NCBI RefSeq assembly: GCF_964194155.1 | Contig: NC_135901.1 | Location: 27,466,001 to 27,530,000 of the forward strand | Source of the DNA: Cetorhinus maximus | Lineage: Eukaryota | Length of the DNA: 64,000 bases | Direction of reading: 5' to 3' | Shown here: piece after piece, positions 5,347-63,970 of the stretch | How positions within the stretch are numbered: position 1 is the stretch's first letter | Layout of the letters: the number at the start of each line of letters is the position of its first letter | Notes under the pieces: model-generated | Databases searched by the model: none | The model's input: only the letters and a program-made list of their open reading frames with translations | Told to the model about the DNA's origin: nothing | Position numbers and translations under genes: made by a program

Positions 5347-6084
5347 GGTGCGCTTGTCCTTGTGTCTCTCCAGGCCTGATGATCAGTTGAAGCCTCGTCC
5401 TCACACAGAACACCCATAATGTCTCTCCTCACTGTGAATGGAGTGATGTTTTTTCAGGCTGTGTAACAGGTTGAAGCTCTTTCCACACTCAGTGCACTGG
5501 AAACTCTCTCAGTCGGGTGTGTGGGTCTCAGTGCTTTTCTGGTCAAAATGTTGTTTAAAATTTTCTTGAAGCATACAGAACAGACAAACCTTTCTCCTTC
5601 TAGATTCAAAGGCCAATGATATTCAGGTCACGATGAATCGATTGACTCCATCAGATCTTGATGTAAAGTTTGTTTTAAGATTTCTGTTTGCAAATCCTTC
5701 CCCTCTAATATCCTGTAAAAGGAGTTTACACAAGACATCACTGTCAGTACAGGATAGAAATTCAGAACAGACAATTCTAGTTTCTAAGGAACATTCTTTC
5801 CTCTCTCGTTCCCCAAAAGCTGTAAATCTCCATCCCCAATGCACTCTCCTTCCATTCTCACTCTGCTGTATCTAATATACACCCAACAGTGTTAGGGTCG
5901 GAAGCAGTGAACTGTCAAGGAGTGGTTCAGTTGGTAATTGTAGGTTAATTGACAAGTACTTCACTGGGTGTATCTAAAGGGGAAACAGGTGAGACAATGT
6001 GTGTGAAGAATTATGTGTGTGCTAGAATAAAACTCTGCTTGAACTTTTTAAAGACATGACTGAAGTAGTCCAACAGGCGTATAA

Positions 6085-6402: not shown

Positions 6403-7717
6403 AGGAGTACAGACCTGGTTTCTGTCTTTATTATCAAGAAGCCATTGGAGCTTAACATACAGTACTCCATTACATGGTTAGGGACAGATGGGTCTGTTAG
6501 GGAGAACTTTATTTCAACAGTGAGTGCTGATGACCTGGATCTCGCTGTCTATGAAGGTGATGGGAGCATAAACGAAACTGGATGGACAGACGAAGGAAAT
6601 AACCTTGCAGGGGAACGGGCATATAGAGGGGGAATGGGACTGAGTGAATTACTCTGCAGAGAGTCGGCATGGACTTGAGTTGCAGAATGGACTCCTTCTG
6701 TGCTGTAATGGCTCTATGACTGGATATACATCACGTAGCTACAGTACTGTAGGAACTAGGACTAGGAACGATAATACATAAACTCTATTACAGAATCATA
6801 ATTATTATATCTAAAATGTCCCCTATCACAACATTAGATATATCTATGTCCTATATTATTGTATTGTCCAGGGGGCAGAACTCTTATAAAATAAAATAAG
6901 GAACACATCAGCCATGGGGCTGGAGGCATGGCTGGGGGGTGTGGTGCTGGTGACCAAGACAGCAGTTGGGGAGGGTTGTGGATTTCAATATGAGACGGGC
7001 TGGGGAGAAGGGGTCTTGAGACAATAATAGTGGGAGGGGTGGGGGATAAAATTAACTAAAACTTACAACTTATTTTGTTCAGTCAGAACACCATCATCTC
7101 TCTGCTGGCCGACTCACTCACTTGCCGTCTCACTCAAACTTACTCTGGAAACTCCCGGGATCAGTTTCCCACAGGCTGTCCTAGAAATACGGGGCAAAAG
7201 GCAAAATAAGGAGCAATCCCTCAAAATACAGGACAGTTAATTACCCTGAAATTGTCCCCTTAAATGTCAACCATCTCCCAAGGAAACCACCCCTTTAATT
7301 GTGAAATACATAACGTAGCTACAATATATATTGCAAGACTAAAAACAATAATAAATAAACTTTATTACAGAACCATAAATAATATATCCAATATTTACCA
7401 TATAACACCAGACACATCTCTGTCCTATATTAATTTACTGTCCCCTTAAATGTCAGCCATCTCCTGGGGAAACCACCCTTTTAATTGTGAACATTAGGAA
7501 AGAGACCATCCTTTTAGCCAGACAAATAAATGTGTCAAGCTGAGGGAGCAAAGGATGTCAATGTCTTTAAGAGAGAGAGAGAGACCTGGGCCAACCTTTC
7601 CAGAGTCTGCACCCTCCCTGGATTCACTTCATTTCCCTACAGTTCCTGCAAGTCAACAATTCACCCCAGAATGAGGAAAGAAATGGAAAGGGGGAGAAAA
7701 GAAAGTGTTTTACTCAC

Positions 7718-8284
7718 AGATGTTGGACACAGGAGGCAGTTTTAGTCTGTGTGAAGCTCAATCTTCATTCAGACAAAAACCCGCGCTCTGATTGGCTGGT
7801 GGGCAAGAGACCTTCCGGTCCTCCAACTCTTCCCATTGGTCAATCTCCAGCATGAGGACAATGGAGCAGCGGAAGTCGTCGTGGGCCGTGGAGACCCTTT
7901 GACCCTCGTGATGGATGAGTGTTGGTCAATGGGCAAAAATCCACTCTCTGCACATGCGCAGCTGTCCCACTCCCTCGGACCTGCGCTGCTTCCCCTCTCC
8001 CTCGGACATGCGCAGTCCCGGGCCGACAGCCCGCGCGGCGGATAGAGCGGTTTCCCCATCGCGGGGGAATGTGGGAGCTGCGGCCGTCATTACTCATTCG
8101 GAGCCCAGTCTCCAAACTCCTGGGACTGGGATGGAAAGTGGGGTTGGGGGCGCGCAGTGACCCCGCCCTGAAACAAAGTACATGGGGGTAGTCACTGGAT
8201 TTGATTGTGTCGTCCCCTTAGCAGTTTGTTAGCTTCAGGTGTAAAGATTTAGACACCTGGGTGACATATTTGGGAGGGCAACAG
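7718..8284. promoter_or_regulatory. Bidirectional CpG-rich promoter with divergent non-coding first exons
   Basis: Minus arm CCAAT-CCGGAAG(ETS)-CCAAT then exon ending catct|GTGAGT (donor 7712-7717); NRF1-like GCGCATGTGC; ZNF143-like site ~8059-8078; plus-arm donor acag|GTGAGT at 8285. Confidence 0.75.
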
Positions 8285-14260: not shown

Positions 14261-14774
14261 ATGCATAGGTTTTGGAGCGAGTGCTACATTCTCATCACTC
14301 TCTGGGTGAAGAAGTTTATTCTCTTAACCACCTTCTTGTCCCTTTTAACTGTTTCCCAGTTTCTCAGCTCGATCTGCTGATCCTGGAATGGGGAAAAGGA
14401 CAGAGAAAGGATGAGGCAACTGAGACTTCACATCACTTCCCCAAACACCAGGGCTCAGTCAGTCTCACACACTCGCCTCTGAGTCTGAAGGTCGTGGGTT
14501 CAAGTCCCCACTCCAGAGACTCGAGTCGCCCATAATCAAGGGCTGACACACATTCAGTCTTCAGCTGCCAGGTTCCGAAGCTCTGTATTTCCCTCCCTTA
14601 ACCTCTCCACTTATCTCTCGTCCTTTAAGATTTTGCTTAAAACTTACCTTTTCTCATTTCACTGATATCAAGGACTTGACAAACTGTGTGTTCAAAACAA
14701 AGCTGATTTATTTGATATTTATCTGGAATATTACAGGGTGTATTAACATCATCAGAACAGGCAAACACACGAGC

Positions 14775-16329: not shown

Positions 16330-17178
16330 TGAAACATGAACTCACTGGTGTGTCAGGAGATGGGACGAGCGAGTGAACTTTCAAACAGTCTTCCCCTGGT
16401 GTGAACTCACTGTTGTATCAACAGGCTGGAGGATTGGTTGAATTCCTTCCTACACATGGAACATTTAAATGCCTCTCCCCAGTGTGAATTCGCAGCTTGG
16501 CTGACTGAGTGAATCCCTTCCGAGTTGGATCAGGTGACTGGTCTCTGTCCGGTGTGAGCTCATTGATATGTTATCAAGCTCAATGAGTGAGTGAATCCCT
16601 TCCAACATTCAGAGAAGGTCAGTGGCCTCTCGTGGTGTCCCAGTAGGTGAGAGGAATCCTTGAACCTCTTCACACACTGGGAGTGAGCAAAGGGCCTCTC
16701 CACAGTGTGAACTAATTAGTGTCTAAGCACGGTGGATGAGCAAATGAATCCCTTCCCACACACAGAGCAGGTGAATGGCTTCTCCCCACTGTGACTGCAT
16801 GGTTGAGTTTCCAGCTTGGCTGCTTTCTCAAAGCCCCTCCCACTGCCAGGTTTAAATAGATCATCCCCTGTCGGGCTACAGTTGTCCATCACCAAGCTGG
16901 ATGACCAATTGAAGCCTCACACTGATAGCTGAAAACTTTTCATTGGATAGATAAACAAATAATTTCTCATTCAGCATTCAGAGGCTGATGATAGACTTGA
17001 AACGTCAACTGTGCTCCTCTCCACCGATGCTGCCAGACCTGCTGAGTTTTTCCAGGTATTTTTGTTTTTGTTTTTGTTCTGATGATAGTCATGGCCTGAT
17101 AAGTTGAGTGATGCTGTCAGATCTTGACATGATGTTTGGTTTGCGTTTCCGGTCTGCAAATCGTTCATACTAATGCAC
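16330..17178 (-). pseudogene. Highly decayed C2H2 zinc-finger gene on the divergent arm of the 17.4-17.9 kb promoter
   Basis: Residual [14 protein letters not shown] units, family 3'UTR at 16255-16330, acceptor ttttacag near 17179; contains a Penelope-end fragment at ~16990-17078. Confidence 0.75.
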
Positions 17179-17409: not shown

Positions 17410-17870
17410 ATCTATTGCCCTCCCCAATATGTCACCCAGGTGTCTAAATCTTTACACCTGAAGTTAACAAACTGTTTTGCTAAGGGGACGTCACAATCAA
17501 ATCCAGTGCCTACCCACATGTACTTTGTGTCAGGGCGGGGTCACTGCGCCTCCCCCACCCCCACTTTCCATCCCAGTTCCAGGAGTTTGAAGACTGGGCT
17601 CCGGATGAGTAATGGCGGTCGCAGCTCCCACAATCCACCGCGCTGGGGAAACCGCTCTATCCGCCGCGCGGGCGGGCGGCCCGGGACTGCCCATGTCCGA
17701 GGGAGAGAGGAAGCTGCGCATGTGCGGGGAATTGCGATTTCCATTGGGCAACCGCTCGTTCGTATTGGGTCAAAGAGTCTCCGGCTTCGACGAAGGCTTC
17801 CGCTGCCCCATTGTCTTCAGGCGGGAGATTGACCAATGGGAAGAGTTGGAGGACCGGAAGAACTCTGGTC
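17410..17870. promoter_or_regulatory. Bidirectional promoter, inverted paralog of 7718-8284
   Basis: ZNF143/Staf-like GCTCCCACAATCCACCGCG at 17624-17642, YY1-like AATGGCGG, NRF1-like TGCGCATGTGCG, CCAAT plus CCGGAAG; plus-arm exon 1 deleted. Confidence 0.7.
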
Positions 17871-18801
17871 TCTTAAAGACATTGACATCCTTTGCTCCCT
17901 CAGCTTGACATTTATTTGTCTGGCTAAAAGGATGGTCTCTTTCCTAATGTTCACAATTAAAGGGCTGATTTCCCCAGGAGATGGCTGACATTTAAGGGGA
18001 CAGTAAATTAATATTGGACAAAGATATGTCTAGTGTTGTTATATGATACATATTTTATTATTCATGGTCATCTAAACTTCATTCATAATTATTTCTAGTC
18101 TTGTAATGTAGTAGTGTAGTTACATAATGTGCCTTCATTCATAGAGTCTTTGTGGCACAGAGGGAGTCCATTCAGCAACTTGAGCCAATGCTGACTCTCT
18201 GTGTAGAACAATACAACCAGTAATCAGTATCAAACAGAAAGCAGTGAGCATGATTCTGTCAGTCAGGATGAATCAGCAACTTCAGGAGAATTGGGAGGGG
18301 GGATTTAAGGTGAAGCAGTGTGAGAATGGAGGGTGAGTGTGGGTGGAGAGATTCACAACTTTTCGGCAATGACAGAAGGCAGAATTTTCCATGGAAACTA
18401 GAATTGTTGGTTCTAAAATGTTATCCTGTACTGACTTTGCAAACTCCTTTTACAGGATATCAGAAGGGGAGGATTTGCAGACAGAAATCTCAAATCAAAC
18501 ATCACGTCAAGATCTGACAGAGTCACACGGTTTAATGGGACCTGAATATTATCGGCCGTTGAATCTAGAAAAAGCAATGTTTGTCTGTTCTGTCTGCTTC
18601 AGAAGATTTTAAACATCAGTGTGACTGGACAAGCACCAAGACACACACACCCGAGTGACTGTTCCAGTGCACTGACTGTCAAGGAGCATCAACCAGGTAA
18701 ACAGACTGATTTGACATTGCAATGTAGAGAGACCGTAAAAGTGTTCTGATTGTGGATGAGGATTCAATTGATCGTCGAACCTGGAGAGACATGAGGACAC
18801 C

Positions 18802-26784: not shown

Positions 26785-27271
26785 TGTGTGGGTGTCTTTA
26801 GGTCACCCCAGATTCAATGATCAACTGAGCAGTCCACACACACAGCATGTGTACAGTCCCTCCCGTGATGTTTTATCAGGCTGCGTAACTGGTCAAAGCT
26901 CTTTCCGCAGTCAGTGCACTGGAACACACTCACTCAGATGTGTCTGTCTCAGTGCATTTCCGATAACACTGATTTCAAAACCGTCTGAAGCAGACAGAAC
27001 AGACAAACATTTCTCTAGATTTAAAGGCCATTGATATTCAGCTCCTGATGAATTGAGTGACTCAGTCAGATCTTGATGTGACGTTTGATTTGAGATTTCT
27101 GTCTGCAAATCCTCCACTTCTAATATTCTGTAAAAGGAGTTTACAAAAGTCATCACTGTCAGTCCATTATAGAAAATCAGAACAGCTGAATTCAGTTCCT
27201 GCAAGTCAACAATTTGCCCCAAGAATGAGAAAAGAAATGGAAAGGGGGAGAAAAGAAAGTGTTTTACTCAC

Positions 27272-27762: not shown

Positions 27763-29517
27763 GTGAGTAAAACACTTTCTTTTCTCCCCCTTTCCATTTC
27801 TTTTCTCATTCTGGGGGGAAATTGTTGACTTGCAGGAACTGAAGGGAAAGGAAGTGAATCCAGGGAGGTTGCAGACTCTGGAAAGGTTGGCCCAGGTCTC
27901 TCTCTCTTAAAGACATTGACATCCTTTGCTCCCTCAGCTTGACACATTTATTTGTCTGGCTAAAAGGATGGTCCCTTTCCTAATGTTTACAATTAAAAGG
28001 GTGGTTTCCCCAGGAGATGACTGACATTTAATGGGACAGTAAATTAATATAGGACAGAGATATGTCTAATGTTGTGACAGGGAACAGTTTAGATATATTA
28101 TTTGTAGTCCTGTAATTAAATTCATGTATTATCCTTTCCAGTCTTGTAATGTAGGACTGTAGCTGTGTAAAGATTTCCAGTCATAGGGTCATTACGGCAC
28201 AGAAGGAGTTCATTCGGCAACTCAAGTCCATGCTGACTCTCTGTAGAAGAATCCATTCAGTCCCATTCCCCTTCAATATCCCTGTTCCCCTGCAAGTATA
28301 TTTCCATCAAGTGTCCGTCGAATTTCATGCTGAGCACAATGATCATCTTCAGTTCCACCATCCTCAGACTCATTGAATTCCAGGTCATGATCACTGACTC
28401 CTAAATACATTTCTTTCTTGCATCCCCCCATACCTCTAATCATGCAATACATATCATATAATATTATATTACAACATTTGTACTCCTATAATGTGTTCAT
28501 GCTTATGGCTCACAGCTCTGTTTGCTGGACTGACAGTGCTGAACATGGATCTGTCAATCAGGATGAATTTGCACCTTCAGGAGAATTGGGAGGTTGTAAA
28601 TTAGGTACAGCAGAGTGAGATTGGAGGGAGAGTGAGTGGGACAGAGATGTACAGGTTTTGGGGAGCGAGAGAGGAAAGAATGTTTCATAGAAACTAGAAT
28701 TGTCTATTCTGAATTTCCATCCTGTACTGACAGTGATGACTTTTGTAAACCCCTTTTGCAGGATATTAGAGGAGGAGGAATTGCAGACAGAAATCTCAAA
28801 CCAAAAATCACATCAAGATCTCACAGTGTCATTCAATTCATCAGGACCTGAACACAATTGACATTTGAATGTGGAGAAACGTTTGTCTGTTCTGTCTGTG
28901 GGGAAAGATTCTAAACATTGGTGTGATTGGAAAAGCACCAAGACACACACACCCGAGTGAGTGTGTTCCAGTGCACTGACTGTGGAAAGAGTTTGAACCA
29001 GTTACACAGCCTGAAAAAAACATCACACCATTCACAGCGGGGAGAGACTGTACATGTGTTCTGTGCATGTATGAGGCTTCAACTGATTATCAAACACAGA
29101 GAGACATAAAGACACCCATACCATGGAGAAAGCATAGAAATGTGGGGACTGTGGGAAGGGATTCCGGAACCCGTCTGTGCTAGAAATTCTCAAACCAAAT
29201 TCACGTTAGCATCCGCCAGAGTCACTCGATTCATCAGGACCTGAATTTCATCGGCCTTTCAATCTAGAAGGAGAAATGTTTGTCTGTTCTGTCTGCTTCA
29301 AAATGTTTCAAACATCAGTGTGATTGGAAAAGCACCGAGACACACACACCCGAGTGAGAGTGTTTCCAGTGCACTGACTGTGGAAAGAGCATTAACAAGT
29401 TACACAGACTGAAAAAACATCACCATTCACAAAGGGGAGACACCACACATGTGTTCAGTGTGTGGACAAGGCACCAATTGATCAACAGACATTGAGATAC
29501 ACAAGGGCACGCACACC

Positions 29518-31305
29518 ATGGAGAAACTGTGGAAATGTGGGGACGGTGGGAAGGGATTCCAAACCACATCTGTGCTGGAAACTCATCAACACATTCACAC
29601 CGGGGAGAGGCCATTCACCTGCCCTGTGTGTGGGAAGGGATTCAGTCATTCCTCACACCTAGTGGCACACCAGATCACTCACACCAGGGAGAGGCCACTC
29701 ACCTGCTCTATGTGTGGGAAGGGATTCACTCATTCCTCACACCTAGTGGCACACCAGGTCGCTCACAGCAGGGAGAGGCCGCTCACCTGCTCTGTGTGTG
29801 GGAAAGGATTTAGTAAGCCATTACACTTACTGGCACACCAGATAGCTCACACCAGGGAGAGGCTGCTCACCTGCTCTGTGTGTGGGAAAGGATTCACTCA
29901 TTCATCCCACCTATTGGCACACCAGGTAGTTCACACTGGAGAGAGGCTGTTCACCTGCTCTGTGTGTGGGAAGGGATTCACTCAGTCATCCCACCTAGTG
30001 ACACACCAAGTTGCTCACACCAGGGAGAGGCCCTTCTCCTGCGCTGTGTGTGGAAAGGGATTCACTCAGTCATCCCACCTAGTGGCACACCAGGCAGTTC
30101 ACACCCGGGAGAGGTCGTTCACCTGCACTGAGTGTGGAAAGGGATTCACTCAGTCTGCGCACCTAGTGGCACACCAGGTAGTTCACACTGAGGAGAGGCC
30201 GTTCACCTGCTCTGTTTGTGGGAAGGGATTCACTCAGTCATCCCACCTAGTGGCACACCAGATAGTTCACACCAGGGAGAAGCCATTCATCTGTTCTGAG
30301 TGTGGAAAGGGATTCACTCACTCATCCCACCTAGTGGCACACCAGATAGTTCACAGCAGGGAGAAGCCATTCACCTGCTCCGAGTGTGGGAAGGGATTCA
30401 CTCATTCATCCCACCTAGTGGCACACCAGGTAGTTCACACCAGGGAGAGGCCTTTCGCCTGCTCTGAGTGTGGGAAGGCATTCACTCAGTCATCCCACCT
30501 AATGGCACACCAGGTAGTTCACACAGAGGAGAGGCCTTTCACCTGCTCTGAGTGTGGGAAGGGATTCACTCAGTCTGCGCACCTAGTGTCACACCAGGTC
30601 GCTCACACCAAGGAGAGGCCATTCTCTTGTTCTGTGTGCGGGAAGGCATTCACTCAGTCTACACACCTAGTGGCACACCAGGTAACTCACACCAGGGAGA
30701 AGCCTTTCACCTGTTCTGTGTGTGGGAAGGGATTCACTCAGTCATCCCACCTAGTGGCACACCAGGTAGTTCACACCGGGGAAAGGCCGTTCAGCTGCTC
30801 TGAGTGTGGGAAGGGATTCACTCAGTCATCCCACCTAGTGGCACACCAGGTAGTTCACACCGGGGAGAGGCCGTTCACCTGCTCTGAGTGTGGGAAAGGA
30901 TTCACTCAGTCATCCCACCTAGTGGCACACCAGGTCGTTCACATCAGGGAGAGGCCGTTCACCTGCTCTGAGTGTGGGAAGGGATTCACTCAGTCATCCC
31001 ATCTAGTCGCACACCAGGTAGTTCACACCGGGGAGAGGCCGTTCACCTGCTCTGTATGTGGGAAGGGATTCACTCAGTTATCCCATCTGCTGACACACCA
31101 ACAAGTTCACATTGGAAAAGATCATTCACCCGCTCTCGATGTGGGAAGGATTCACTCGGTCGTCCCATCTGCAGACACACCGGCAAGTTCACACTGGAGA
31201 GAGGCCCTTCATTTGCTCCATGTGTGGGAAGGGATTCGCTCTTTCATCCTACCTGCTGACACATCAACAGGGTCACACCGGGGTGAGACCGTTTGCCTGC
31301 TCTGA
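29518..31305 (+). CDS. C2H2 zinc-finger protein D, 19 tandem fingers (first defective), frameshifted tail
   Basis: 595-aa ORF of CxxCGKGFT(Q/H)[11 protein letters not shown] repeats at 84-bp period; intact donor 27763 and acceptor 28761; frameshift after finger 19 (~31115). Confidence 0.9.
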
Positions 31306-31461: not shown

Positions 31462-33875
31462 AGTTAATTGTGTCAATTGAGGTAAAATATGTACAGGTGC
31501 AGGACATTTATTGGATGGTTACTTGAGCACATATAAAGAGACACTACTAAAACATAGTCGGGTGTATTCAGGAGGTATATACCTGTAATGTTTCACACTG
31601 TGAATAAATCTACACCAAGCAAAGACTGGCTCCAGTTTCTTCCTTCACCATCAGGCTGTCAGGATTATAACATGGTAACAGAGAATGCTTGTCTAATGTT
31701 GGAGGTTGGAAACTAAAGGAAAATAAAATTTCAGACAGAAGCTGACAATCCGAGTAGCTTTTGTGAGAAATGGCTGAAAACAAGTGGAAATTGTCAGGGA
31801 ATTGCTCTGAAGAAGGATCATACGGACTCGAAACGTTAACTCTGTTTCTCTCTCCACAGATGCTGCTAGACATGCTGAGCTTTTCCAACCCTTTCTGTTT
31901 TTGTGTCAGATTTCCAGCATCTGCAGTAATTTGCTTTTATATTATGGAAATTGTCAGGGTCTGATTACCCGCCAATGCTCTCGGAGTCTGAGCCACACGA
32001 CCAGTGGAAGAATGAAGTGGAGATGTGGACACGGGTTACGTCCCTACCAAGGAGGAAACAAGGTCTGATCTTGGCATTGTCACTTCCCAACAAAAGTAAA
32101 ATCAGAAGCAAAGTATTTAGTGAGCTGGATGCCCGTCAATTGGATACTGAAGAAGGTTTGGATCTTCTATTCGGGTTCATTGACGAGATTTACAAGAAAG
32201 ATGATCTATTGGATGCCTATGAAGCATAGATGGACTTTGACAGGTTTCGAATGAGGGTGAAAACAAACATCTTTAGCAGATCTGGATATCACAACAAGAG
32301 ACAGGATTGGAACAGCACTAATAGGTGAATGAACCCCAGGAATGACCAAGGAACAATTAACAGGTGTTTCAAGTCAGACTCAAAATATCATTATGTGATG
32401 AACTGCCCAAAGTGGAAAATCAGGGTCTTCGAAGTGACACATGATACAGAGAATTTTGAGGCTGAAGATAATGATGATGATCACTCTGAAGGAATTGTAC
32501 TAGTCACGAGGAGCTTTGGTCCAGTGATGATTGTGTTCATCACAGACTCATTCAACTGTGCTGTGTTAGACAGTGGCTGCACCTCGACAGTATGTGGATC
32601 AGTTGGTGAAAATGTTATCCAGATTCACCTCATAATGAGGATTGACATAAGGAGTATGAAAGTTTGTCTTGTCTTTGGTGATGTGAACACATTGACGTCA
32701 CTAAAAAGAGTGGGGATTTTTGCAAAATAGCTGGAGTCAGCCACTTTATCAGGACTGGTGTACTCTCTAGTGTGATACCCTTACTGTTGAGTAATCCTTC
32801 CACAAAAAAGGCACAAATGCAACTGGACATGAAGCAAGATAAGGCAACTGTTTTGGAAAGTCAGTGGATCTGCAGTTTACTCAATCAGGACATAGTCGTC
32901 TCCCCTTAACAATACCTGATGTTTCTAATCAGTGTGTTTGAGAAGGATTAATGGCATCAATGATAAGAATCAGAGAGAAAAAAAACAAATTATTTTAAAA
33001 CTAAACAGACAATTTGCTCACTCTTCCTGTCAAAGATAACAAATCCTGCTAAAAGATGCAGGGGTGGTTGGTGAAGAGTATACGAGGCTCATAGAGGAGA
33101 TTAGAGCAAAGTGTGAAATGTGTAAAAAGTATGGGAGGATGCTGTCACATCCTATTGTAAACCTTCCCTTGGCACGTGACTTTAACCAGGTAGTTGCCAT
33201 GGATCTAAAGGGATGCGACAAAGACAGAAATATTTTCATTCTACACTTTATAGACATGTTAACCGATTTAGTGTTTCTCCAATAATACACGGCAAGGGCA
33301 AAAGGGAGATTATCGACCAAGTCATGGAGAAATGGATAGGGACTGGACCTGCGTCACCAGCTGAGTTTCTGAAGGATAATGGAGGGGAAATTTGCTAATG
33401 ACGAGTTTAGAGACGTGTGTGAAAACATGAACATTATGGTCATGAACACTGCAGCTGAAAATCCTTTCAGCAATGGACTCTGTGAAAGGAATCACGCTGT
33501 GATCGATGAAATGCTGCAGAAAATCTTAGCTGATCAGTCAAACTGCAAGTTGACAACTGCACTGACATGGATGATTCATGTAAAGAATTCACTCCAGATG
33601 GTTGGAGGGAAAAGTCCATTTCGATTGGTCTACAGGAGAAATCCTAAATTACCCTCTGTGCTGGGCGATAGCCCTCCTGCTTTGGAAGGGACTACAATTA
33701 GTTCCATTTCTAGTCATCAATTATTGGATTGTTTCATAAAAAGAAGTGCTCGAGCTGAGAAATTACTGGGGATCCTAGAAGAGGGATGTCTTAAAATGTA
33801 ATAATTCTTTGTGCAAAATAAGGAAAATCATATTTTGTCCTCTTTGGTTTGTTTTGAAATATTGTTTGTGCCAAT
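31462..33875 (+). mobile_element. Copia-type LTR retrotransposon, internally deleted (LTR, PBS, gag, protease, integrase, RNase H end)
   Basis: LTR 31462-31672 ending TAACA; PBS TGGTAACAGAG 31673-31683 (1 mismatch to initiator tRNA-Met 3' end); decayed knuckle CFKSDSKYHYVMNC; protease AVLDSGCTSTVCG; integrase VAMDL..DNGGEF..SNGLCERNH; RH-end QLLDCFIK; protease-integrase order is Copia-type. Confidence 0.85.
31800..31944 (+). mobile_element. 145-bp Penelope-derived insertion with hammerhead motif and 15-bp TSD
   Basis: TGGAAATTGTCAGGG at 31785-31799 and 31945-31959; empty site visible in the copies at ~38940 and ~57580; same insert at 62710-62854. Confidence 0.85.
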
Positions 33876-37225: not shown

Positions 37226-38022
37226 AAGCAACTAGAATTGTCTGTTCTGAATTTCTAGGTCTCGTGTTGTTGTCGGTCATGTCCACTTGCTCCCTGAATA
37301 AAATTCTCCCTCACTCCCCACACCACCATATCTCTAATAAGTCTGACATTATTGAATATTGCACACAATTTTAGTCCAGTAATATAGACAGATATATGGC
37401 GAGCAGCCTGCATGAAGATTTTAGGGTCCCTGTGTGCAGGACAGCAAGTGCTGAGCATGGATCTGTCGATCAGCATAAACCGGCACCTTCAGGACAATTG
37501 GGAGGGTGAATATCAGGTACACAGAGTGAGAACAGAGGGAGAGTGTGTGGGATGGAGATTTACAACTTCTGGGGAATGAGAAAGAAAATAATGTTCCAGA
37601 AAACTCAAATTGTCTGTTCTGAATTTCTACCCTACACTGAATTTTGTAAACTCCTTTTACAGGATATTAGAAGAGGGGAATTTACAGACAGAAATCTCAA
37701 ACCAAACATCACATCAGAATCTGACAAGTCACTCAATTCATCAAGACCTGAATATCATTGGTCTTTGAATATAGAAGGAGAAATGTTTCCCTGTTCTGTC
37801 CACATCAAAAGAATTTAAACATCAGTGTGACTTGAAAAGCATCGAGATGCAGACATCTGAGTGAGTGGGTTCCAGCGCACTAACTGCGGAAAGAGCTTTA
37901 ATCAGTTACACAGCCCAAAATAAATTGCACCATTCACAGCAGGGAGAGACTGTACACATGTTCTGTGTGTGGACGAGGCTTTGACTGATATTCAAACCTC
38001 AATAGTCACAAGGGCACCCACC

Positions 38023-45738: not shown

Positions 45739-47035
45739 AGTGTGGTTGTCCTTGTGAATCTCAAGGTTTGACCATCAGTTGAAGCCTCGAACTCACACGG
45801 AATACTTGGACAGTCTCTCTGCACTGTGATGTTTTTTCAGGCTGTTTAACTGGTTAAAGCTCTTTCCACAGTCAGTGCACTGGAACACTCTCACTGAGGT
45901 GTGTGTGTGTCTCGGTGCTTTTCCAGTCACAATAACGTTTAAAATGTTTTGAAGCAGACAGAACAGACAAACATTTCTCCTTCCAGATTCAAAGCTTAAG
46001 AGTATTCGCATTGTGATGAATCAAGCGACACTGTCAGATCATGACATGATGTTTGTTCTGAAATTTTTGTCTGAAAACTCTCTCCTTTTGATAGCCTGTA
46101 AAAAAGAGTTCGTAAAAATCAATACAGGATAAAATTTTGGAACTGAGAATTCTAGTTCATGTGGAACATTCTTTCTTCTGTCACTCCCCAAAAGGTGTGA
46201 ATCTTTGTCCCACACACTGTCCCTCCATTCTCACTCTGCTGTACCTTAAATTCCCAATTCTCCTGATTCATGCTGATCGATAGATCCATGCTCACCGCTT
46301 CCTCTCCAGGACACAGAGACCTGAAAATCTTCAAGCAGGTGGTCAACCATATATGTGTCTATTTTAAAGCATGAAAAATGTATCATATACTGCACTGTAT
46401 CACTTGCTTAAGATACAAGGGGAATGTGAATAGCAACTTTATTTACCTCCGAGTAGGACAAAGGCAGCAGATGCATGGGAACACCACCACCACTACTTGC
46501 AAGTTCCTCTCCAAGCCACTCACCATCCTGACTAGGAAATATATCAGCTGTTCCTTCACTGCTGCTAGGTCAAAATCCTGGAAATCCTTCCCTCACAGTA
46601 TGTTGGGTGTACCTGCACCACATGGACTGCAGCGGTTCAAGAAGGTCTCTCACCACCACCTTCTCAAAGGCAATTAGGGATGTGCATTTAAAATGTTGGC
46701 CTAACCAGTGACACTCAGACCCGGTGAAAGAACATAATGAAAATGTAGACAGCGCGCAGTCATGACCTGGAACTTGCTGCCTAAGGGGTGGTGGAAGCAG
46801 AGAAGATCAATAATTTAAAAGTGAAATTGGATGGACACTTGAAGGAAACTTCTGGGAGAGAGAATGGAGATATTGAGGGTGAAGGAGACCGATTGTTCTA
46901 CAGACTCGAGTTGCTGAATGGAGTCCTTCTGTGCCATAATGACTCCATGACTGGAAATATATACTTAGCTACAGCACCTTATTACAAGACTAGAAAAGAA
47001 ATGGAAAGGGGGAGAAAAGAAAGTGTTTTACTCAC

Positions 47036-47485: not shown

Positions 47486-47812
47486 GTGAGGAAATCAATG
47501 TTTCGCCCTTTCCATTTCTTTTCTCAATCTGGGGGCAAATTGTTGACTTGCAGGAACTGAAGGGAAAGGAAGTGGTTCCAGGGAGGGTGCAGACTCTGGA
47601 AAGGTTGGCCCAGGTCTCTCTTTCTCTTAAAGACATTGTGACACCCAAGTGAGAGTGTTTCCAGTGCACTGACTCTGGAAAGAGCTTTAACCAGTTACAC
47701 AGCCTGAAAAAACATTGCACTATTCACAACGGGGAGAGACTGTACATGTTCTGTATGTAGATGAGGCTTCAACTGATTGCCAAAGTTGGAGAGACTCAAG
47801 GACACTCACAAC

Positions 47813-50498: not shown

Positions 50499-51214
50499 GC
50501 GAATAAAACACCTTCTTACCACCACCACCACCACCACCACCGTTTCCATTTATTTTCTCATTCTGGGGGTAAATTGTTGACTTGCAGCAACTGAGGGGAA
50601 AGGAAATGAATCCAGGGAGGGTGGAGACTCTGGAAAGGTTGGTCCAGGTCTCTCTCTCTCTCTCTTAAAGACACTGACATCCTTTGCTCCCTCAGCTTGA
50701 CACATTTATTTGTCTGGCCAAAAGGATGGTCTCTTTCCTAATGTTCACAATTAAAGGGGTGGTTTCTCCAGGAGGTAGCTGACATTCAGGTGACATTATA
50801 GCAATATAGGATATAGTATGGTCTAGTGTTATTATAATGGTACATATTATTTATGGTTCTCTAATTAAGAACACGTATTTTATTCCTAGTCTTGTAATAT
50901 AGTGCTGTATATATTTCCAGTCATAGAGTCATAAAGGCACAGGAGTCTATTTGGTAACTTGAGTCCTTGCCAACTCTGTAAAGTAATCCAGTCAGTACCA
51001 TTCCCCCTCTGTATCCCCGTTGCCCTAAAAGTTTATTCCCTTCAAGTGGCCATCCAATTTCACTTTGAAATCATTGATTGTCTCCGCTAACACCATCCTC
51101 ATCGGCAGCGGGTTTCAGATCATCACAACTTACTGTCTAAATAAAGTTTCTCCTCACATCCCCGTGTAGTTCTAATCAAGTAATCCAGTACGAATAGTCA
51201 TTTGGTAGCACAGA

Positions 51215-52593: not shown

Positions 52594-53270
52594 CTATTAC
52601 CCTCCCCAATATGTCACCCAGGTGTCTGAATCTTTACACCTGAAGTTAACAAACTGTTTTGCTAAGGGGGCGTCACAATCAAATCCAGTGACTACCCACA
52701 TATACTTTATGTCAGGGCGGGGTCACTGCGCCCCCCACCCCCATTTTCCATCCCAGTCCCACGATTTTGGAGACTGGGCTCCGGATGAGTAATGGCGACC
52801 GCAGCTCCCACAATCCAACGCGCTGAGAAAAGCGCTCTATCCGCCAAGCGGGCGGGCAGCCCGGGACTGCGCATGTCCAAGGGAGCGGGGAAACTGCGCA
52901 TATGGTGAGGAGACGATGGATTGCGCATGTGAGCCTGCGGGTTTTGGGCATGAATGTGCATGTGCGGGGGTGAGATGGGGACCTGCGCAAATCCCGCGCT
53001 CTGATTGACTGAGGGCCATTGTCTGTTCCGTCTTCCAGCCTTTCCCATTGGACAACAGCTCAGCGCGGCTGGTGGGGGGGAGGGGGTAGGGGTCGCAAAA
53101 TCCCTCCCACGTGGGGTTACGCCTCTCATTGCCTTCAGGTGAGGGATTGACCAATGGGAAGTCTGGAGCACCGGAAGGACTCTTGTCCTCGAGCCAATCA
53201 GCACGCTGGCTTTGTGTAAATGAAGAGTGACCTTCACACAGACTAAAACCTCCTCCTGTGTCCAACATCT
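52594..53270. promoter_or_regulatory. Bidirectional promoter driving ZNF-H (+)
   Basis: Donors GTGAGT at 52588-52593 (-) and 53271-53276 (+); ZNF143-like site 52804-52822, several GCGCAT(G) motifs, CCAAT-ETS-CCAAT. Confidence 0.8.
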
Positions 53271-54501
53271 GTGAGTAAAACACTTTCTTTTCTCCCCCTT
53301 TCCATTTCTTTCCTCATTCTGGGGGGAAATTGTTGACTTGCAGGAACTGAAGGGAAAGGAAGTGAATCCAGGGAGGGTGCAGACTCTGGAAAGGTTGGCC
53401 CAGGTCTCTCTCTCTCTCTTAAAGACATTGACATCCTTTGCTCCCTCAGCTTGACACATTTGTTTGTCTGGCTAAAAGGATGGTCCCTTTCCTAATGTTC
53501 ACAATTAAAGGGGTGGTCTCCCCAGGAGATGGCTGACATTTGAGGGGACAGTATATTTATATAGGACAGAGATATGTCTAGTGTATGTTATTTATGGTTC
53601 TTTAGTAACAGAGATGGAGTCATTACAGCACAGAAGAGCCCACTTAGCAATTGGAGTCCATGCCGACACTGTAGAGCAACCTAGTCAGTCCCATCCCCCC
53701 TCTATATCCCTGTTCCCCTGCAAGTTTATTTCCTTCAAGTGCCCATCCAATTTCATTTTAAAATCATGAATCGCCTCCACTTCCACCACCCTCGGAGGCA
53801 GCAAGTTCCTGATCATGAAAAATCACTGCCTAAAAAAAACCTTCTTCAGATTTTCCCGATATCTCTGATCAGGAAATAAACTTAAATGATGATTTTCATA
53901 TTATGGACAGGAAGCAATGGGTTTGCAGCTGTTGATCAGCATGAATCGGCCCCTTCTGGACAATTGGGAGGGTGTATATTAAATACAGCAGAGTGAGAAT
54001 GGAGGGAGAGTGTGTGGGATGGAGATTTACAGATGTTGGGAACAAGTGAGGGATGTATGTTCCATAGAAACTAGAATTGTCAGTTCTGAATTTCTATTGC
54101 TGTCCTGACAGATGATTTTTGTAAACACTTTTTACAGGATATTAGCAGGGGAGGATTTTCAGCCTGAAATCTCAAACCAAACATTGTGTCAAGATCTGAT
54201 AGAGTCATCCAATTCGTCGGGACCTGAATATCATCGGCCGTTGAATCTGGAAGGAGAAATGTTTGTCTGTTCTGGCTGCTTCAAAAGGTTTTCATCATCG
54301 GTGTGACTGGGTAAACACCGAGACACAGACACCCGAGTAAGAGTGTTCCAGTGAAATGAGTGTGGAAAGAACTTTAACCAGTTACACAGCCTGAACGTAC
54401 ATCACAGTATTCACAGCGGGGTGAGGCTGTGCACGTGTTCTGTGTGAGGACGAGGCTTCAACTGATCATCAAACCTGGAGAGTCACAAGGACTCCTGTAT
54501 C

Positions 54502-55236
54502 ATGGAGAAGCTGTGGAAATGTGGGGACTGTGGGAAGGGTTTCCGGTTCCCGTCTGCGCTGGAAACTCATCGACGCATTCACACTGGGGAGAGGCCATTT
54601 ATTTGCTCCATGTGTGGGAAGGGATTCACTGATTCATCCACCCTTCGGAAACACCAGCATGTTCACACCAGGGAGAGGCCGTTCACCTGCTCCGAGTGTG
54701 GGAAGGGATTCAGGGATTCATCCCACCTGTTGACACACCAGCGGGTTCACACCAAGGAGAGGCCATTCACTTGCTCGGAGTGTGGCAAGGGATTCAGTCA
54801 TACATCTCACCTGCTGACACACCAGCGAGTTCACACGGGGGAGAGGCCATTCACCTGCTCTGTGTGTGGGAAGAGATTCACTCAGTCTTGCAACCTGGTG
54901 ATGCACCAGCGAGTTCACACTGGGGAGAGGCCACTCACCTGCTCTTTGTGTGGAAAGCAATTCAATCACTTATCCAACCTGGTGAGACACCAGCGAGCTC
55001 ACAGTGGAGAGAGGCCGTTTACCTGCTCTGAGTGCGGAAAGGGATTCACTGATTCATCCAACCTGCTGAGACATCAGCGAGTTCACACCGGGAGAGACCA
55101 TTCGCCTGCCCTGAGTGTGGGAAGGGATTCAGTCAGTTCTCGAGCCTGCGGAAACACCAGTGAGCTCACACTGGGGAGAAGCCATTCACCTGCTCTGAGT
55201 GTGGGAACGGATTCTCTCAGTCCCCACACCTGCTGA
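54502..55236 (+). CDS. C2H2 zinc-finger protein H, 7 intact fingers then frameshifted tail
   Basis: [14 protein letters not shown]..., intact splice signals (acceptor 54137|54138); frameshift near 55090, original family stop at ~55257. Confidence 0.82.
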
Positions 55237-56821: not shown

Positions 56822-57908
56822 ATCCCCACTCTTTTTAGTGACTTCAATGTGTTCATATCACCAAACCAGAACTTTCACACTCCTTAACCTTGTGTCGATC
56901 CTCAGTACAAGGTGAATCTGGGTAACATGTTCACCAATCTAATCCACATACTGTCGAGGTGCAGCCACTATCTAACACAGCACAGTTGAATGAGTCTGTG
57001 ACTAATATACTCATCACTGGACCAAAGCTCCTTGTGATGACTACAATTCCTTCAGAGTGATCATCATCATCATCTTCAGCCTCAGAATTCTCTGTGTCAT
57101 GTGTCACTTCGAAGACCCTGATTTTCCACTTTGGGCAGTTCATCACATAATGATATTTTGAGTCAGACCTGAAACACCTGTTAATTGTTCTCTGGCCATT
57201 CCTGGGGTTCATTCACCTATTAATGCTGTTCCAATCCTGTCTTTTGTTGAAATATCCAGATCTGCTAAAGATGTTTTCACCCTCATTCGAAACCTGTCAA
57301 AGTCCAACTATGCTTCATAGGCATTCAATAGATCATCTTTCTTGTAAATCTCATCAATGAACTTGAATAGAAGATCCAAACCTTCTTCAGTATCCAACTT
57401 CCAGCTCACTAAATACTTTGCTTCTGAATTTACTTTTGTTGGGAAGTGACAATGCTAAGACCAGACCTTGTTTCCTCTTTGGTAGGGACGTAACCCGTGT
57501 CCACATATCCACTTCATTCTTCCACTGGTCGTGTGGCTCAGATACTGAGAACATCAGCGGGTAATCAGACCCTGACAACTTCCACTTGCTTTCAGCCATT
57601 TCTCACAAAAGCTACTCGGGTTGTAAGCCTCTGTTTAATATTTTATTTTCCTCTAGTTACCAACATTCACCATTAGACAATCATTCTCTGTTACCATGTT
57701 ATAATGTTGACAGCCTGATGACGAAGGAAGAAACTGGAGCTAATCTTTACTTGGTATAGATTTATTCACCGAGTGAAGCATTACAGGTATATACCTCCTG
57801 ACTTGACTCCACTCTATGTTAGTAAGGGTCCCCTTATATATGCTCAAGTACCGATCTAATACATGATGTCCACCCGTATATACTTAACCTCAATTCACAC
57901 AATCAATA
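56822..57908 (-). mobile_element. Copia-type element 5' part (LTR, PBS, gag, protease)
   Basis: LTR 57697-57908, PBS 57686-57696, MAESKWKLSGSDYP..., AVLDSGCTSTVCG; lacks the 145-bp insert. Confidence 0.85.
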
Positions 57909-58361: not shown

Positions 58362-59292
58362 GATGCGCATGTTCTTGTGTCTCTCCAGGTTCTACGATCA
58401 GTTGAAGCCTCGTGCTCACAGAACACGTGTACAGTCTCTTCCCGCTGTGAATGGTGATGTTTTTCTCAAGCTGCATAACTGGTTAAAGTTGTTCCCACAG
58501 TCAGTCTCTCACTCGGGTGTGTGTGTCTCGGTGCTTTTCCAGTCACACTGATGTTTAAAACCTTTTGAAGCAGACAGAACAGACAAACATTTCTCTTTCC
58601 AGATTCAAAGGCTGATCATATTCAGGTCCCGATGAGTCAGGTGAGTCTGCCAGATCTTGACGTGATGTTTGGTTTGAGATTTCTGTCAGCAAACCCTCCC
58701 CTTCTAATATCCTGCTAAAGGAGTTTACAAAAGTCATTCTTGTCAGTACAGGATAGAAATTCAGAACAGACAATTCTAATTTCTGTGGAACATTCTTTCC
58801 TCTCTCATTCCCCAAAAGCAGTAAATCTCCATCCCACAAACTCTCACTCCATTCTCACTCTGCTGCAACTAAGTTACACCCAACATTACTGCACTAAAAA
58901 TGTGTCTAATACACAGTGCTCAATTACATGATTAGAGATACATGGTGCTGCGGGGATGAAATTTATTTCAACAGCCAGTGGTGATGTCCTGGAACCCACT
59001 GCCTATGAGGGTGGTGGTTCCAGAGACGATCAATGAGTTCTAAATGAAATTGAATTGACACTTGAAGGAAATGAACATGCAGGGGAACGAGGGTATAGAA
59101 GGGGAATGGGATTGACTGGATCGCTCTACAGAGAGTTGGTATGGACTCGAGTTGTCAAATGGACTCTTTCTGTGTCAGAATTACTCCATCATTGGAAATA
59201 TATTAAGTAGCTACAGTACTCTCCTCCAAGACTAGAAGGATAACAAATTAACTTTATGACAAAACTATCAATAATATATCTAAAGTTTCCCC

Positions 59293-60182: not shown

Positions 60183-60900
60183 CCCAAATCACAACATTAG
60201 ACATATCTTTGTCCTTCATACTGTATTGTCCAGGGGGCAGAACTCTAATGAAATAAAATAAGGGACACTTCAGCCGTGGGGGAGGCATGGGTGGGGGTGA
60301 GATGCTCGTGACCGTGAAGCAGGTTGGGGGTATTTGCGTTTCAATATGAGAGGGGCTGGGTAGGAGGTGTCTAGAGACAATAATAGTGGGAGCAGTGGGG
60401 TTTAAAATCAACTAAAACTTACAATGGTTCTTGTTCAGTCACAACATCATCATCTCTCTGCTGGCCGACTCACTCACTTGCCGTCCCACTCGAATCACTC
60501 AAACTCACCCTGGAGACTCAGGGATCAGTTTCTCACAGGCTGTCCTAAAAATATGGGCAAAAATACAAAATAAGGAGGAATCCCTTAAAATACAGGACAG
60601 TTAAACACCCTGAAATTGTCTCCTTAAATGTCAGCCACCTCCTGGGGAAACCACCCCTTTTATTGTGAACATTAGGAAAGAGACCATCCTTTTGGCCAGA
60701 CAAGTAAATGTGTCAAGCTGAGGGAGCAAAGGATGTCAATGTCTTTAAGAGAGAGAGAGAGAGAGACCTGGGCCAACCTTTCCAGAGTCTGCACCCTCCC
60801 TGGATTCACTTCCTTTCCCTTCAGTTCCTGCAAGTCAACAATTTCCCCCCAGAATGAGAAAAGAAATGGAAAGGGGGAGAAAAGAAAGTGTTTTACTCAC

Positions 60901-62370: not shown

Positions 62371-63970
62371 TATTAATTGTGTCAATTGAGGTAAAATATA
62401 TACAGGTGGAGGGCATTTATTAGATGGTTACTTGAGCACATATAGAGAGGCAACTACTGCCTCACAGCAGGGTGTAGTCAGGAGGCCTTTACCTGTAATG
62501 TTTCACTCTGTGAATAAATCCATCCAAAGTAAAGACTGGCACCAGTTTCTTCCTTCACCATCAGGCTGTCAGGATTATAACATGGTAACAGAGAATACTT
62601 GTCTAATAGTCGAGGTTGGAAACTAAAGGAAAATAACATTTCAGACAGAAGCTGACAATCCAAGTAGCTTTTGTGAGAAATGGCTGAAAACAAGTGGAAA
62701 TTGTCAGGGAATTGCCCTGAAGAAGGGTCATACGGACTCAAAAGGTTAACTCTGTTTCTCTCTCCACAGATGCTGCTATATCAGCTGAGTTTTTGCAGCC
62801 CTTTCTGTTTTTGTATCATATTTCCAGCATCTGCAGTAATTTACTTTTATATTATGGAAATTGTCAGGGTCTAATTACCTGCCGATGTTCTCGGTGTCTG
62901 AGCCACACGACCAGTGGAAGAATGAAGTGGATATGTGGACACGGGTTACGTCCCTACCAAGGAGGAAACAAGGTCTGGTCTTGGTATTGTCACTTCCCAA
63001 CAAAAGTAAAATCAGAAGCGAAGTATTTAGTGAGCTGGATGCCCGTCAGTTGGATACTGATGAAGGTTTGGATCTTCTATTCAGGTTCATTGACGAGATT
63101 TACAAGAAAGATGATCTATTGGATGCCTATGAAGCATAGTTGGACTTTGACAGATTTCGAATGAGGGTGAAAACATATTTAGCAGATTTGGATATATCAA
63201 CAAAAGACAGGATTGGAACAGCATTAATAGGTGAATGAACCCCAGGAATGCCAGAGAACAATTAACAGGTGTTTCAGGTCTGACTCAAAATATCATTATG
63301 TGATGAACTGCCCAAAGTGGAAAATGAGGGTCTTCGAAGTGACACATGACACAGAGAATTCTGAGGCTGAAGATGATGATGATGATGATCACTTTGAAGG
63401 AATTGTACTAGTCACAAGGAGCTTTGGTCCAGTGATGAGTGTGTTAGTGACAGACTCATTCAACTGTGCTGTGTTAGACAGTGGCTGCACCTCGGCAGTA
63501 TGTGGATCAGATTGGTGAAAATGTTACCCAGATTCACCTCATAGTGAGGATCGACACAGGATTAAGGAGTATGAAAGTTCTACTTGTTTAGGTTTGGTGA
63601 TGTGAACACATTGAAGTCACTAAAAAGAGTTGTGATTTCATGCAAAATAGCTGGAGTCAGCCACTTTATCAGGACTGGTGTAGACTCTAGTAAGATACCC
63701 TTCCTGTTGAGTATTCCTTCCATGAAAAAGGCACAAATGCAACTGGACATGGAGCAAGATAAGGCAATTGATTTTGGAAAGTCAGTGGATCTGCAGTTGA
63801 CTCAGTCAGGACATTATCGTGTCCCCTTAACAATACTTGATGTTTCTAATCAGAGTGTTTGAGAAGGATTAATGGCATCAGGAGATAAGAATCAGAGAAA
63901 AAACGCAAATTGTCTTTCAGCTACACACAGACAATTTGCTCATCCTTCTTGTCAAAGATTTAAAATCCAA
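62371..63970 (+). mobile_element. Copia-type element, paralog of 31462-33875
   Basis: LTR 62371-62582, PBS 62583-62593, same 145-bp insert with TSD, gag, protease, integrase start LHRQFAHPS. Confidence 0.88.

What the first reader, a model, noticed from the sequence alone, without database searches (positions are those of the whole stretch)
54138..54501. Three 'ghost' zinc fingers in the leader, with a TGA invariant in all 10 copies 13 codons before the start
Seen: the exon-2 leader translates as ILEGEDLQTEISNQTSRQDLTES...MFVCSVCFKRF(*/Q)TSV*LEKH..H..FQCTDCGKSFNQLHSLKKH..HSGERLYTCSVCGRGFN*SSNLERHKD..MEK. The GFN-TGA stop is present in 10/10 leaders (5383, 18769, 26821, 29084, 29479, 37986, 45775, 47774, 54463, 58398) although the next codons vary freely (SSG, SLN, LSN, STD, YSN, WSN, LPK). 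The V-TGA-L stop is in 8/9 copies that retain the site. The divergent pseudogene has TGG at the homologous site (16905-16907). Inference: the family founder converted its N-terminal fingers to 5'UTR. The stops may be retained as a uORF/reinitiation device (short uORF MFVCSVCFKRF*) or, less likely, recoded by readthrough or editing, since both lie at helix positions -1 and +3. Frameshifts in several leaders argue against recoding.
Basis: partly seen in the sequence, partly recalled or inferred. Interest (0 to 1): 0.8.

Follow-up and report, generated by a model that had tools for sequence, protein, structure and literature searches.

The report
Fossil zinc fingers in shark leaders
A large family of shark-type zinc-finger genes carries three dead fingers in front of its start codon, and the shared stop codon there is most likely an old inherited mutation, not a preserved control device.

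Summary
The three decayed C2H2 fingers and the TGA in 10 of 10 window copies are real; the inference that the TGA is specially retained is not supported. The window lies in a ZNF-rich chromosome of a 4 Gb shark-like genome with hundreds of copies. Genome-wide the codon is TGA in 177 of 247 exact-context matches and in 75 of 87 de-duplicated leaders (2 TAA, 8 sense, 2 deleted). It changes as often as out-of-frame TGA triplets of the same leader. A sister subfamily still encodes the third 'ghost' as its first finger, with CGA/CAA/AGA at this codon, so the stop is a CpG-deaminated Arg codon fixed early and copied by duplication. Three other leader CGAs are decaying to TGA/CAA now. The ghost region evolves neutrally (dN/dS 1.11 against 0.48 in the CDS); 60 of 87 leaders are out of frame and none is open. 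Recoding is very unlikely; a uORF role is unsupported (the TGA closes an in-frame uORF in 3 of 87). Side lead outside the window: copies that start with ACG instead of ATG are still under purifying selection, which suggests non-AUG initiation.

The parts
53344..53393 (+). Putative 50-nt upstream exon (AG acceptor, GT donor), highly similar among paralogs; if spliced at this donor it joins the leader exon in the frame of the ghost fingers
   Evidence: Sequence; paralog matches; splicing inferred, no joint seen
54130..54137 (+). Splice acceptor (pyrimidine tract ending in CAG) in front of the leader exon
   Evidence: Sequence and alignment of window copies; inferred
54138..54258 (+). 5' part of the leader, 40 codons without stop in this copy, evolving neutrally (dN/dS 0.98); shared with the sister subfamily
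54259..54333 (+). Ghost finger 1, opening with an upstream ATG (54259-54261) and broken by TGA at 54304-54306 (helix +3)
   Evidence: ATG kept in 56 of 87 leaders, TGA in 62 of 87 with CGA in 5
54346..54414 (+). Ghost finger 2, first Cys codon changed to TGA (54352-54354)
   Evidence: TGA in 41, TGC in 34 of 87
54430..54501 (+). Ghost finger 3, homologous to the intact first finger of the sister subfamily; second Cys codon changed to TGA (54445-54447)
54463..54465 (+). The TGA of the finding (helix -1), a deaminated CGA Arg codon, 13 codons before the ATG
54502..55236 (+). CDS from ATG, 244 codons, 7 C2H2 fingers, no effector domain found; tail shifted out of the finger frame near 55089
5383..5385 (-). 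Homologous TGA, paralog 1
16905..16907 (-). TGG at the homologous site in a strongly diverged copy without CDS
18769..18771 (+). Homologous TGA, 33 nt before the ATG
26821..26823 (-). Homologous TGA (context LLS, not GFN)
29084..29086 (+). Homologous TGA; the CDS behind it stops after 4 codons
29479..29481 (+). Homologous TGA of a tandem second leader, before the longest CDS of the window (18 fingers)
37986..37988 (+). Homologous TGA, 37 nt before the ATG and so out of its frame
45775..45777 (-). Homologous TGA
47774..47776 (+). Homologous TGA in a 5'-truncated leader
58398..58400 (-). Homologous TGA, followed two codons later by a TAG

Best explanation
The leader is fossil coding sequence and the TGA is an inherited founder mutation. 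An ancestral gene had three more N-terminal C2H2 fingers (inferred). In the line that founded this subfamily, methyl-CpG deamination changed Arg codons CGA to TGA in finger 3 (helix -1) and finger 1 (helix +3), and translation moved to a start 13 codons downstream, where ACG/ATG replaces the Gly codon of the finger linker (origin from CGA shown by the sister subfamily; the order of events is inferred). The truncated gene then multiplied to hundreds of copies by tandem and segmental duplication on one chromosome (shown). The dead fingers drift neutrally as 5' leader (shown). The TGA looks stable because it predates the radiation and is no longer a CpG, whereas neighbouring codons still contain CpG or differ between subclades.
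For: Sister subfamily (37 exact matches): 27 of 29 examined loci have an ATG and an open finger homologous to ghost 3; the codon at this site is CGA 20, CAA 6, AGA 2, CAG 1 of 29 (CAA 6, CGA 5, AGA 2, CAG 1 of 14 after de-duplication). Other leader CGAs are splitting into TGA and CAA: 22/14, 14/15 and 27/21 of 87; CpG sites change 18.5 times per site against 5.3-8.1 for other sites. TGA in 177 of 247 exact-context matches, CGA in 2, CAA in 0. On a tree of 87 leaders the TGA changes 8 times; the six out-of-frame TGA triplets change 5, 8, 8, 9, 13 and 18 times; in 76 close pairs it differs in 6, against 4 of 63, 5 of 68, 6 of 73, 8 of 70 and 9 of 73 for five of them. Ghost region dN/dS 1.11 (p 0.30) against 0.48 in the CDS (p 2.5e-11); indels 1.22 against 0.14 per copy per 100 nt, 229 of 257 not multiples of three. 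60 of 87 leaders out of frame, 4 lack the upstream ATG site, 23 in frame, none without a stop. Stop kept in 57 of 62 copies with five or more fingers and 20 of 23 with fewer (Fisher p 0.68). Copies with TTA, AGA or GGA keep long open CDSs (L142 476 aa, L032 and L148 224 aa).
Against: The TGA is in the conserved tail of the leader: only 20 of 334 non-CpG triplets change as rarely, and resampling matched T, G, A sites gives p 0.059, so a small excess is not excluded. Among the first 100 listed matches, 86 keep a stop (62 TGA, 24 TAA, counted by eye), though most TAA copies share one near-identical sequence and look like one amplified clade. Measured against the consensus without masking CpG-prone sites, ghost-frame pN/pS was 0.66, and 0.52 for ghost 3; in close pairs with masking ghost 3 gave 0.80. 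Gene conversion among paralogs weakens tree-based counts. No translation or editing data could be examined.
Confidence: 0.85

Rival explanations
1. The stop is weakly selected as a frame insulator or uORF terminator that keeps upstream-initiated ribosomes from making N-terminally extended protein or tunes reinitiation at the main start.
For: Top 6% of leader triplets, p 0.059; TAA variants preserve a stop (24 of the first 100 rows); leaders hold about 3.9 upstream ATGs each.
Against: It closes an in-frame ATG-led uORF in 3 of 87 leaders. The upstream ATG is kept in 56 of 87, below the median codon, and its uORF ends at 13 different lengths. The +3 TGA is at median conservation (187 of 334). 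Independent losses are 8 sense to 2 TAA. No link with CDS intactness (p 0.68).
Confidence: 0.08
2. The triplet is kept as part of a nucleotide motif rather than as a stop, for example a splice branch point (it fits the loose yUnAy consensus, recalled) serving an AG in the following 39 nt, or a protein-binding site.
For: The 12 nt around it are 0.906 identical to the consensus against 0.884-0.900 for the ghost fingers; ACG-start copies need some route to a start.
Against: No significant excess conservation to explain; no pyrimidine tract behind it; no such joint among the 15 joint rows shown (248 not shown).
Confidence: 0.04
3. The TGA is recoded (readthrough, A-to-I editing to Trp, or selenocysteine), giving a longer finger array.
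For: The majority leader is in frame with the CDS; TGG occurs at the site in some copies (2 of 87; 4 of the first 100).
Against: No leader of 87 is open; 60 are out of frame; neutral dN/dS and many frameshifts; structural Cys/His/Phe/Leu residues kept in 83% of ghost codons against 97% in the CDS; TAA variants; no Rfam family, SECIS included, at gathering threshold in the window; no protein with an open three-ghost leader among 10 hits from 111 candidates (weak evidence).
Confidence: 0.02

Closest known systems
Lineage-specific tandem C2H2 zinc-finger gene expansions of metazoans (PMC10547256; abstract start in the search listing and one passage seen)
   Same: Hundreds of clustered poly-C2H2 genes with birth-and-death turnover, many broken copies, purifying selection on structural residues.
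   Different: Here the subfamily is defined by a non-coding leader made of three dead fingers; the paper's text has no hit for chondrichth-, cartilaginous, skate, CpG or pseudogen-.
Elasmobranch ZNF gene models beginning [14 protein letters not shown] (Heterodontus francisci, Mustelus asterias, Heptranchias perlo; P0001, P0003, P0008, P0048, P0072)
   Same: Same CDS start and the same 12 codons before it; P0010 reads the leader in the +1 frame in a way that needs T at the first base of the codon; TEK (ACG-type) starts occur too.
   Different: P0004 has Arg at the site, and the unnamed P0129 reads the +1 frame as needing C there, so both states exist outside this genome. These are automated models, not tested proteins.
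Sister subfamily in the same genome, starting MEGKSTVHSGEKPY (L191-L220 except L200; relatives P0015, P0065, P0095)
   Same: Same 5' leader part and the same finger before the EKPWKC finger (alignment).
   Different: Lacks ghost fingers 1-2, translates ghost 3 as finger 1, has CGA/CAA/AGA/CAG at the site and a Gly linker where this subfamily has ATG/ACG.
CGA-to-TGA nonsense mutation by methyl-CpG deamination (established knowledge, recalled)
   Same: Explains the codon spectrum at four leader sites and the 6 of 6 TGA stops found at HQ*VHT-like CDS positions.
   Different: Here the event was fixed before a large expansion instead of killing one gene.
KRAB-ZNF genes of tetrapods
   Same: Short upstream exon(s) followed by one exon with spacer and finger array (structure inferred here).
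   Different: No KRAB or other effector among the 25 of 30 Pfam families shown for the CDS; KRAB-domain families are reported as enriched among those lost in cartilaginous fishes (PMC8455134, passage seen).

Membership tests
Poly-C2H2 (Kruppel-type) ZNF gene | Tandem C2H2 fingers with TGERP-type linkers in an open frame | tested here: met
   7 zf-C2H2 stretches, E 6e-47
Poly-C2H2 (Kruppel-type) ZNF gene | Purifying selection on the finger array | tested here: met
   Family-level dN/dS 0.48 in 76 pairs; the focal copy itself has a shifted tail
Coding sequence fossilised as 5' leader | Homology to a translated sequence elsewhere | tested here: met
   Sister subfamily encodes ghost 3 intact in 27 of 29 loci; no open homolog found for ghosts 1-2
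Coding sequence fossilised as 5' leader | Neutral evolution, stops and frameshifts | tested here: met
   dN/dS 1.11; 60 of 87 out of frame; 0 of 87 open
Coding sequence fossilised as 5' leader | Present in the mature mRNA upstream of the start | tested here: inconclusive
   Only contigs of runs guessed to be RNA; they cover the leader but no splice joint was shown
Conserved regulatory uORF | Start and stop conserved beyond the background | tested here: not met
   Upstream ATG 56 of 87; variable ends; the -1 TGA closes a uORF in 3 of 87
Conserved regulatory uORF | Ribosome occupancy and effect on main-ORF output | not testable with these tools
   Needs ribosome profiling or a reporter
Programmed stop-codon readthrough | Coding-type conservation on both sides of the stop, one open frame | tested here: not met
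Selenoprotein | SECIS element and Cys/Sec alignment at the TGA | tested here: not met
   0 Rfam matches at gathering score in the window; the site aligns to Arg/Gln
A-to-I recoding of a stop | A-to-G difference between RNA and DNA of the same individual | not testable with these tools
   No raw RNA reads or matched DNA; no row at 54463-54465 among 40 shown, 176 not shown
KRAB-ZNF | N-terminal KRAB domain | tested here: not met
   None in leader or among the families shown for the CDS; upstream exons were not scanned

The most novel reading that the evidence does not exclude
Some members of this family start translation at a non-AUG codon. With the frame closed by the TGA 13 codons upstream, copies whose start reads ACG in an A-3/G+4 context keep long arrays under purifying selection upstream of their first Met (L123, L124, L126, L127: first Met at residue 124 of 224; three pairs give 4 non-synonymous and 9 synonymous differences, dN/dS 0.17, p 0.0025). 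CpG deamination would then have made both the stop and, more than once, the ATG (5 ACG/ATG changes on the tree), giving a mutational switch between weak and strong initiation in a large transcription-factor family. An unseen upstream ATG exon spliced into the 39-nt gap is the main alternative. These copies are outside the window.
Probability: 0.35. Interest if true: 0.55.

Novelty: new member of a known kind. Interest (0 to 1): 0.27.

Why it matters
Modestly. It gives a clear marker and origin story for one of two large shark ZNF subfamilies, and warns annotators: automated models splice round or frame-shift through this leader (P0001, P0008, P0010). It is also a clean example of how an 'invariant' stop can arise from CpG decay plus duplication. 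The ACG-start copies offer a testable case of non-AUG initiation under selection.

Tried and rejected
A pattern search with a wide gap did not finish. Further copies from 26.9-27.8 Mb and 42-58 Mb could not be fetched, so the sample is 200 leaders of a family with several hundred to a few thousand members (2460 first-look candidates). Rfam and ARAGORN found nothing in the window. No listed run is on record as RNA; contigs of X1, X2, X4 and X17 were laid: summed depth rises at the acceptor in the three RNA-guessed runs and not in X17, but contig depth cannot rank parts of a gene and pools paralogs, so it is not used as evidence; editing could not be judged. A protein search with the three ghosts read through with X gave only generic finger proteins of non-sharks (10 hits of 111 candidates); a search with the +1 frame gave one unnamed record. 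Consensus-based pN/pS suggested residual selection on the ghosts (0.66) and was set aside for close pairs with CpG-prone sites masked. Intron sequence as a neutral control was unusable beyond 150 nt from the acceptor because it aligned poorly. Earlier findings of the scan: none returned. Ten paper searches returned no paper describing this leader or these subfamilies; the library lacks most subscription journals, and no supplements were read.

Full report
Setting. The window is G000:C24:27466001-27530000 in a 3.99 Gb genome. The best protein hits are zinc-finger models of the horn shark Heterodontus francisci, with other elasmobranchs among the hits, so the organism is taken to be a shark or close relative (inference). 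The window holds about ten related C2H2 genes on both strands. Exact 33-nt patterns for the CDS start alone match 181 and 146 places, the listed ones along C24.

The observation. A TGA is present at all ten cited places. The leader 54139-54501 reads in the CDS frame as a 40-codon spacer and three finger-like units with four TGAs, two of which replace Cys codons; read with X it scores as zf-C2H2 above the Pfam cut-off. The second stop is in 8 of 9 copies. The GFN context fails in three copies, and the spacing to the ATG is 39 nt in eight, 33 nt in one and 37 nt, out of frame, in one. In the window 14 of 241 ghost-region triplets are invariant, though only two separate sites are invariant in all ten over the last 150 nt, so the site does stand out locally.

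Not invariant genome-wide. With the codon left free, 247 places match the context; 177 have TGA, 2 have CGA, none CAA. A stricter pattern gave 76 matches: TGA 58, GGA 7, AGA 4, TAA 3, TTA 3, TGG 1 (counted by eye). For an unbiased sample I anchored on the first CDS finger: 286 anchors, 251 unique, 200 with a match of 60 nt or more to ghosts 1-2; the other 51 (27 from the sister-subfamily search, 24 deleted or different leaders) were dropped. Of the 200, 130 were found without reference to the leader, and 87 remained after removing copies 95% or more alike. Among these the codon is TGA 75, TAA 2, sense 8, deleted 2. At that rate 10 of 10 has probability 0.29.

Is it more conserved than its neighbours? 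On a tree built without the codon it changes 8 times. That is low against all non-CpG triplets (20 of 334 as low; resampling p 0.059), but the six out-of-frame TGA triplets of the same leader change 5, 8, 8, 9, 13 and 18 times. In 76 disjoint close pairs it differs in 6, against 4 of 63, 5 of 68, 6 of 73, 8 of 70 and 9 of 73 for five such triplets. The +3 TGA is at the median (187 of 334). Stop retention does not depend on whether the CDS is intact (57 of 62 against 20 of 23, p 0.68). One point the other way: 24 of the first 100 rows are TAA, which keeps a stop, but most share one sequence and appear to be one amplified clade; after de-duplication losses are 8 sense to 2 TAA.

Where the stop came from. 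A sister subfamily in the same genome (37 exact matches) shares the 5' leader part, lacks ghosts 1-2, and translates ghost 3 as its first finger in 27 of 29 loci examined (L200 was left out as a member of the other subfamily). Its codon at the site is CGA 20, CAA 6, AGA 2, CAG 1. CGA, CAA and TGA are the expected products of methyl-CpG deamination on either strand (established knowledge). The process is visible in the leader itself: three consensus CGA codons have become TGA/CAA in 22/14, 14/15 and 27/21 of 87 copies, and CpG sites change about three times as often as others. At the +3 site 5 of 87 still have CGA. The neighbouring codons that 'vary freely' differ between subclades and include CpG-bearing forms (TCG, seen). 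Horn-shark models show both states: P0004 has Arg, P0010 read in the +1 frame needs T; an unnamed record, P0129, needs C. The main start lies where the sister subfamily has the Gly of the finger linker; 30 copies have ACG there, as do several horn-shark and Heptranchias models, so ACG to ATG by the same chemistry is likely (inference). That the three-finger-longer form is ancestral and the sister subfamily arose by deletion is inferred from the finger tail left at its N-terminus.

The ghosts are not translated as protein. In close pairs with CpG-prone sites masked, dN/dS is 1.11 in the ghosts (p 0.30; ghost 3 alone 0.80) and 0.48 in the first CDS fingers (p 2.5e-11); indels are nine times denser in the ghosts and 229 of 257 shift the frame. 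A cruder count against the consensus gave 0.66 and, for ghost 3, 0.52; I read this as deep subclade divergence and CpG effects, but it is the one hint of residual constraint. Of 87 leaders 60 are out of frame, 4 lack the upstream ATG site, and all 23 in-frame ones contain at least one stop. This rules against readthrough, editing or selenocysteine as a family-wide mechanism; Rfam found no family in the window. Editing could not be tested directly.

uORF device. The upstream ATG is kept in 56 of 87; its uORF ends at codon index 15 in 26 copies, 11 in 11, and at 11 other lengths. The -1 TGA closes an in-frame ATG-led uORF in 3 of 87. uORFs may still dampen translation of these mRNAs, as any leader with about four ATGs would, but nothing shows selection on them.

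Side lead. Of 11 de-duplicated ACG-start copies 8 have five or more open fingers. Three close ACG pairs give dN/dS 0.18 overall and 0.17 upstream of the first Met (4 non-synonymous, 9 synonymous, p 0.0025); L124 against L127 shows 0 and 10 without masking. The sample is small and conditioned on long ORFs. Because the TGA closes the frame 13 codons upstream, these proteins need either a non-AUG start (the ACG, or a CTG nine codons upstream) or an unseen exon. This is the most novel reading left open.

Comparison and verdict. The family is one more lineage-specific C2H2 expansion of the kind described in PMC10547256 (abstract start and one passage seen), without a KRAB domain in the parts scanned (loss of KRAB families in cartilaginous fishes in PMC8455134, passages seen). 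Ten searches of the paper library found no description of this leader, and the scan's earlier notes held nothing. The fossil fingers are real and apparently undescribed, but ordinary in mechanism. Interest 0.27.

Noticed in passing
L123, L124, L126, L127 (G000:C24:18.2-21.9 Mb); also L111, L125, L128, L131, L132: Copies starting with ACG instead of ATG keep long finger arrays, with purifying selection upstream of the first Met; possible non-AUG initiation.
   Followed up: partly
L191-L220: Sister ZNF subfamily that starts at an ATG upstream of the finger that is 'ghost 3' here; its own 5' leader also carries in-frame stops in most copies; many near-identical copies at 39-61 Mb.
   Followed up: yes
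window 53344-53393 (+); copies near 7569-7688, 27792-27907, 47510-47627, 50544-50663, 60752-60871: A 50-nt putative exon, 93-99% alike among window paralogs with its flanks, far more than the leader; it reads without a stop and joins the leader in the ghost frame if the first GT is used. May be a remnant of a coding N-terminal exon or may be constrained at RNA level.
   Followed up: partly
window 52700-53200 and copies near 7860-8280, 17420-17870: CpG-rich promoter-like blocks with repeated TGCGCATG motifs (NRF1-like, recalled), often lying between divergently oriented ZNF genes.
   Followed up: no
window 8760-14320: Long low-complexity tract of degenerate GGTTA(G)-like telomere-type repeats, interrupted by a LINE-like reverse-transcriptase fragment near 12340-13000.
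   Followed up: no
window 31930-33800, 56930-57210, 62840-63860: Fragments of an LTR-retrotransposon-like gag/pol sequence, several copies, broken (identification by motif recall only).
   Followed up: no
window 28660-29520: Tandem duplication of the leader: the first copy is followed by a CDS that stops after 4 codons, the second by the 18-finger CDS; similar double leaders in L015, L016, L081.
   Followed up: partly
window 25953 (- strand): A second MEKLWKC start fused behind an ordinary finger of the gene at 26821, without the ghost leader.
   Followed up: no
G000:C24:3-18 Mb (rows): About 19 near-identical copies with TAA in place of the TGA, apparently one recently amplified segment.
   Followed up: no
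G000:C24:27.1-30.4 Mb: At least 13 copies 92-97% identical to the focal leader, so the focal gene belongs to a recently multiplied block; several have broken CDSs.
   Followed up: partly
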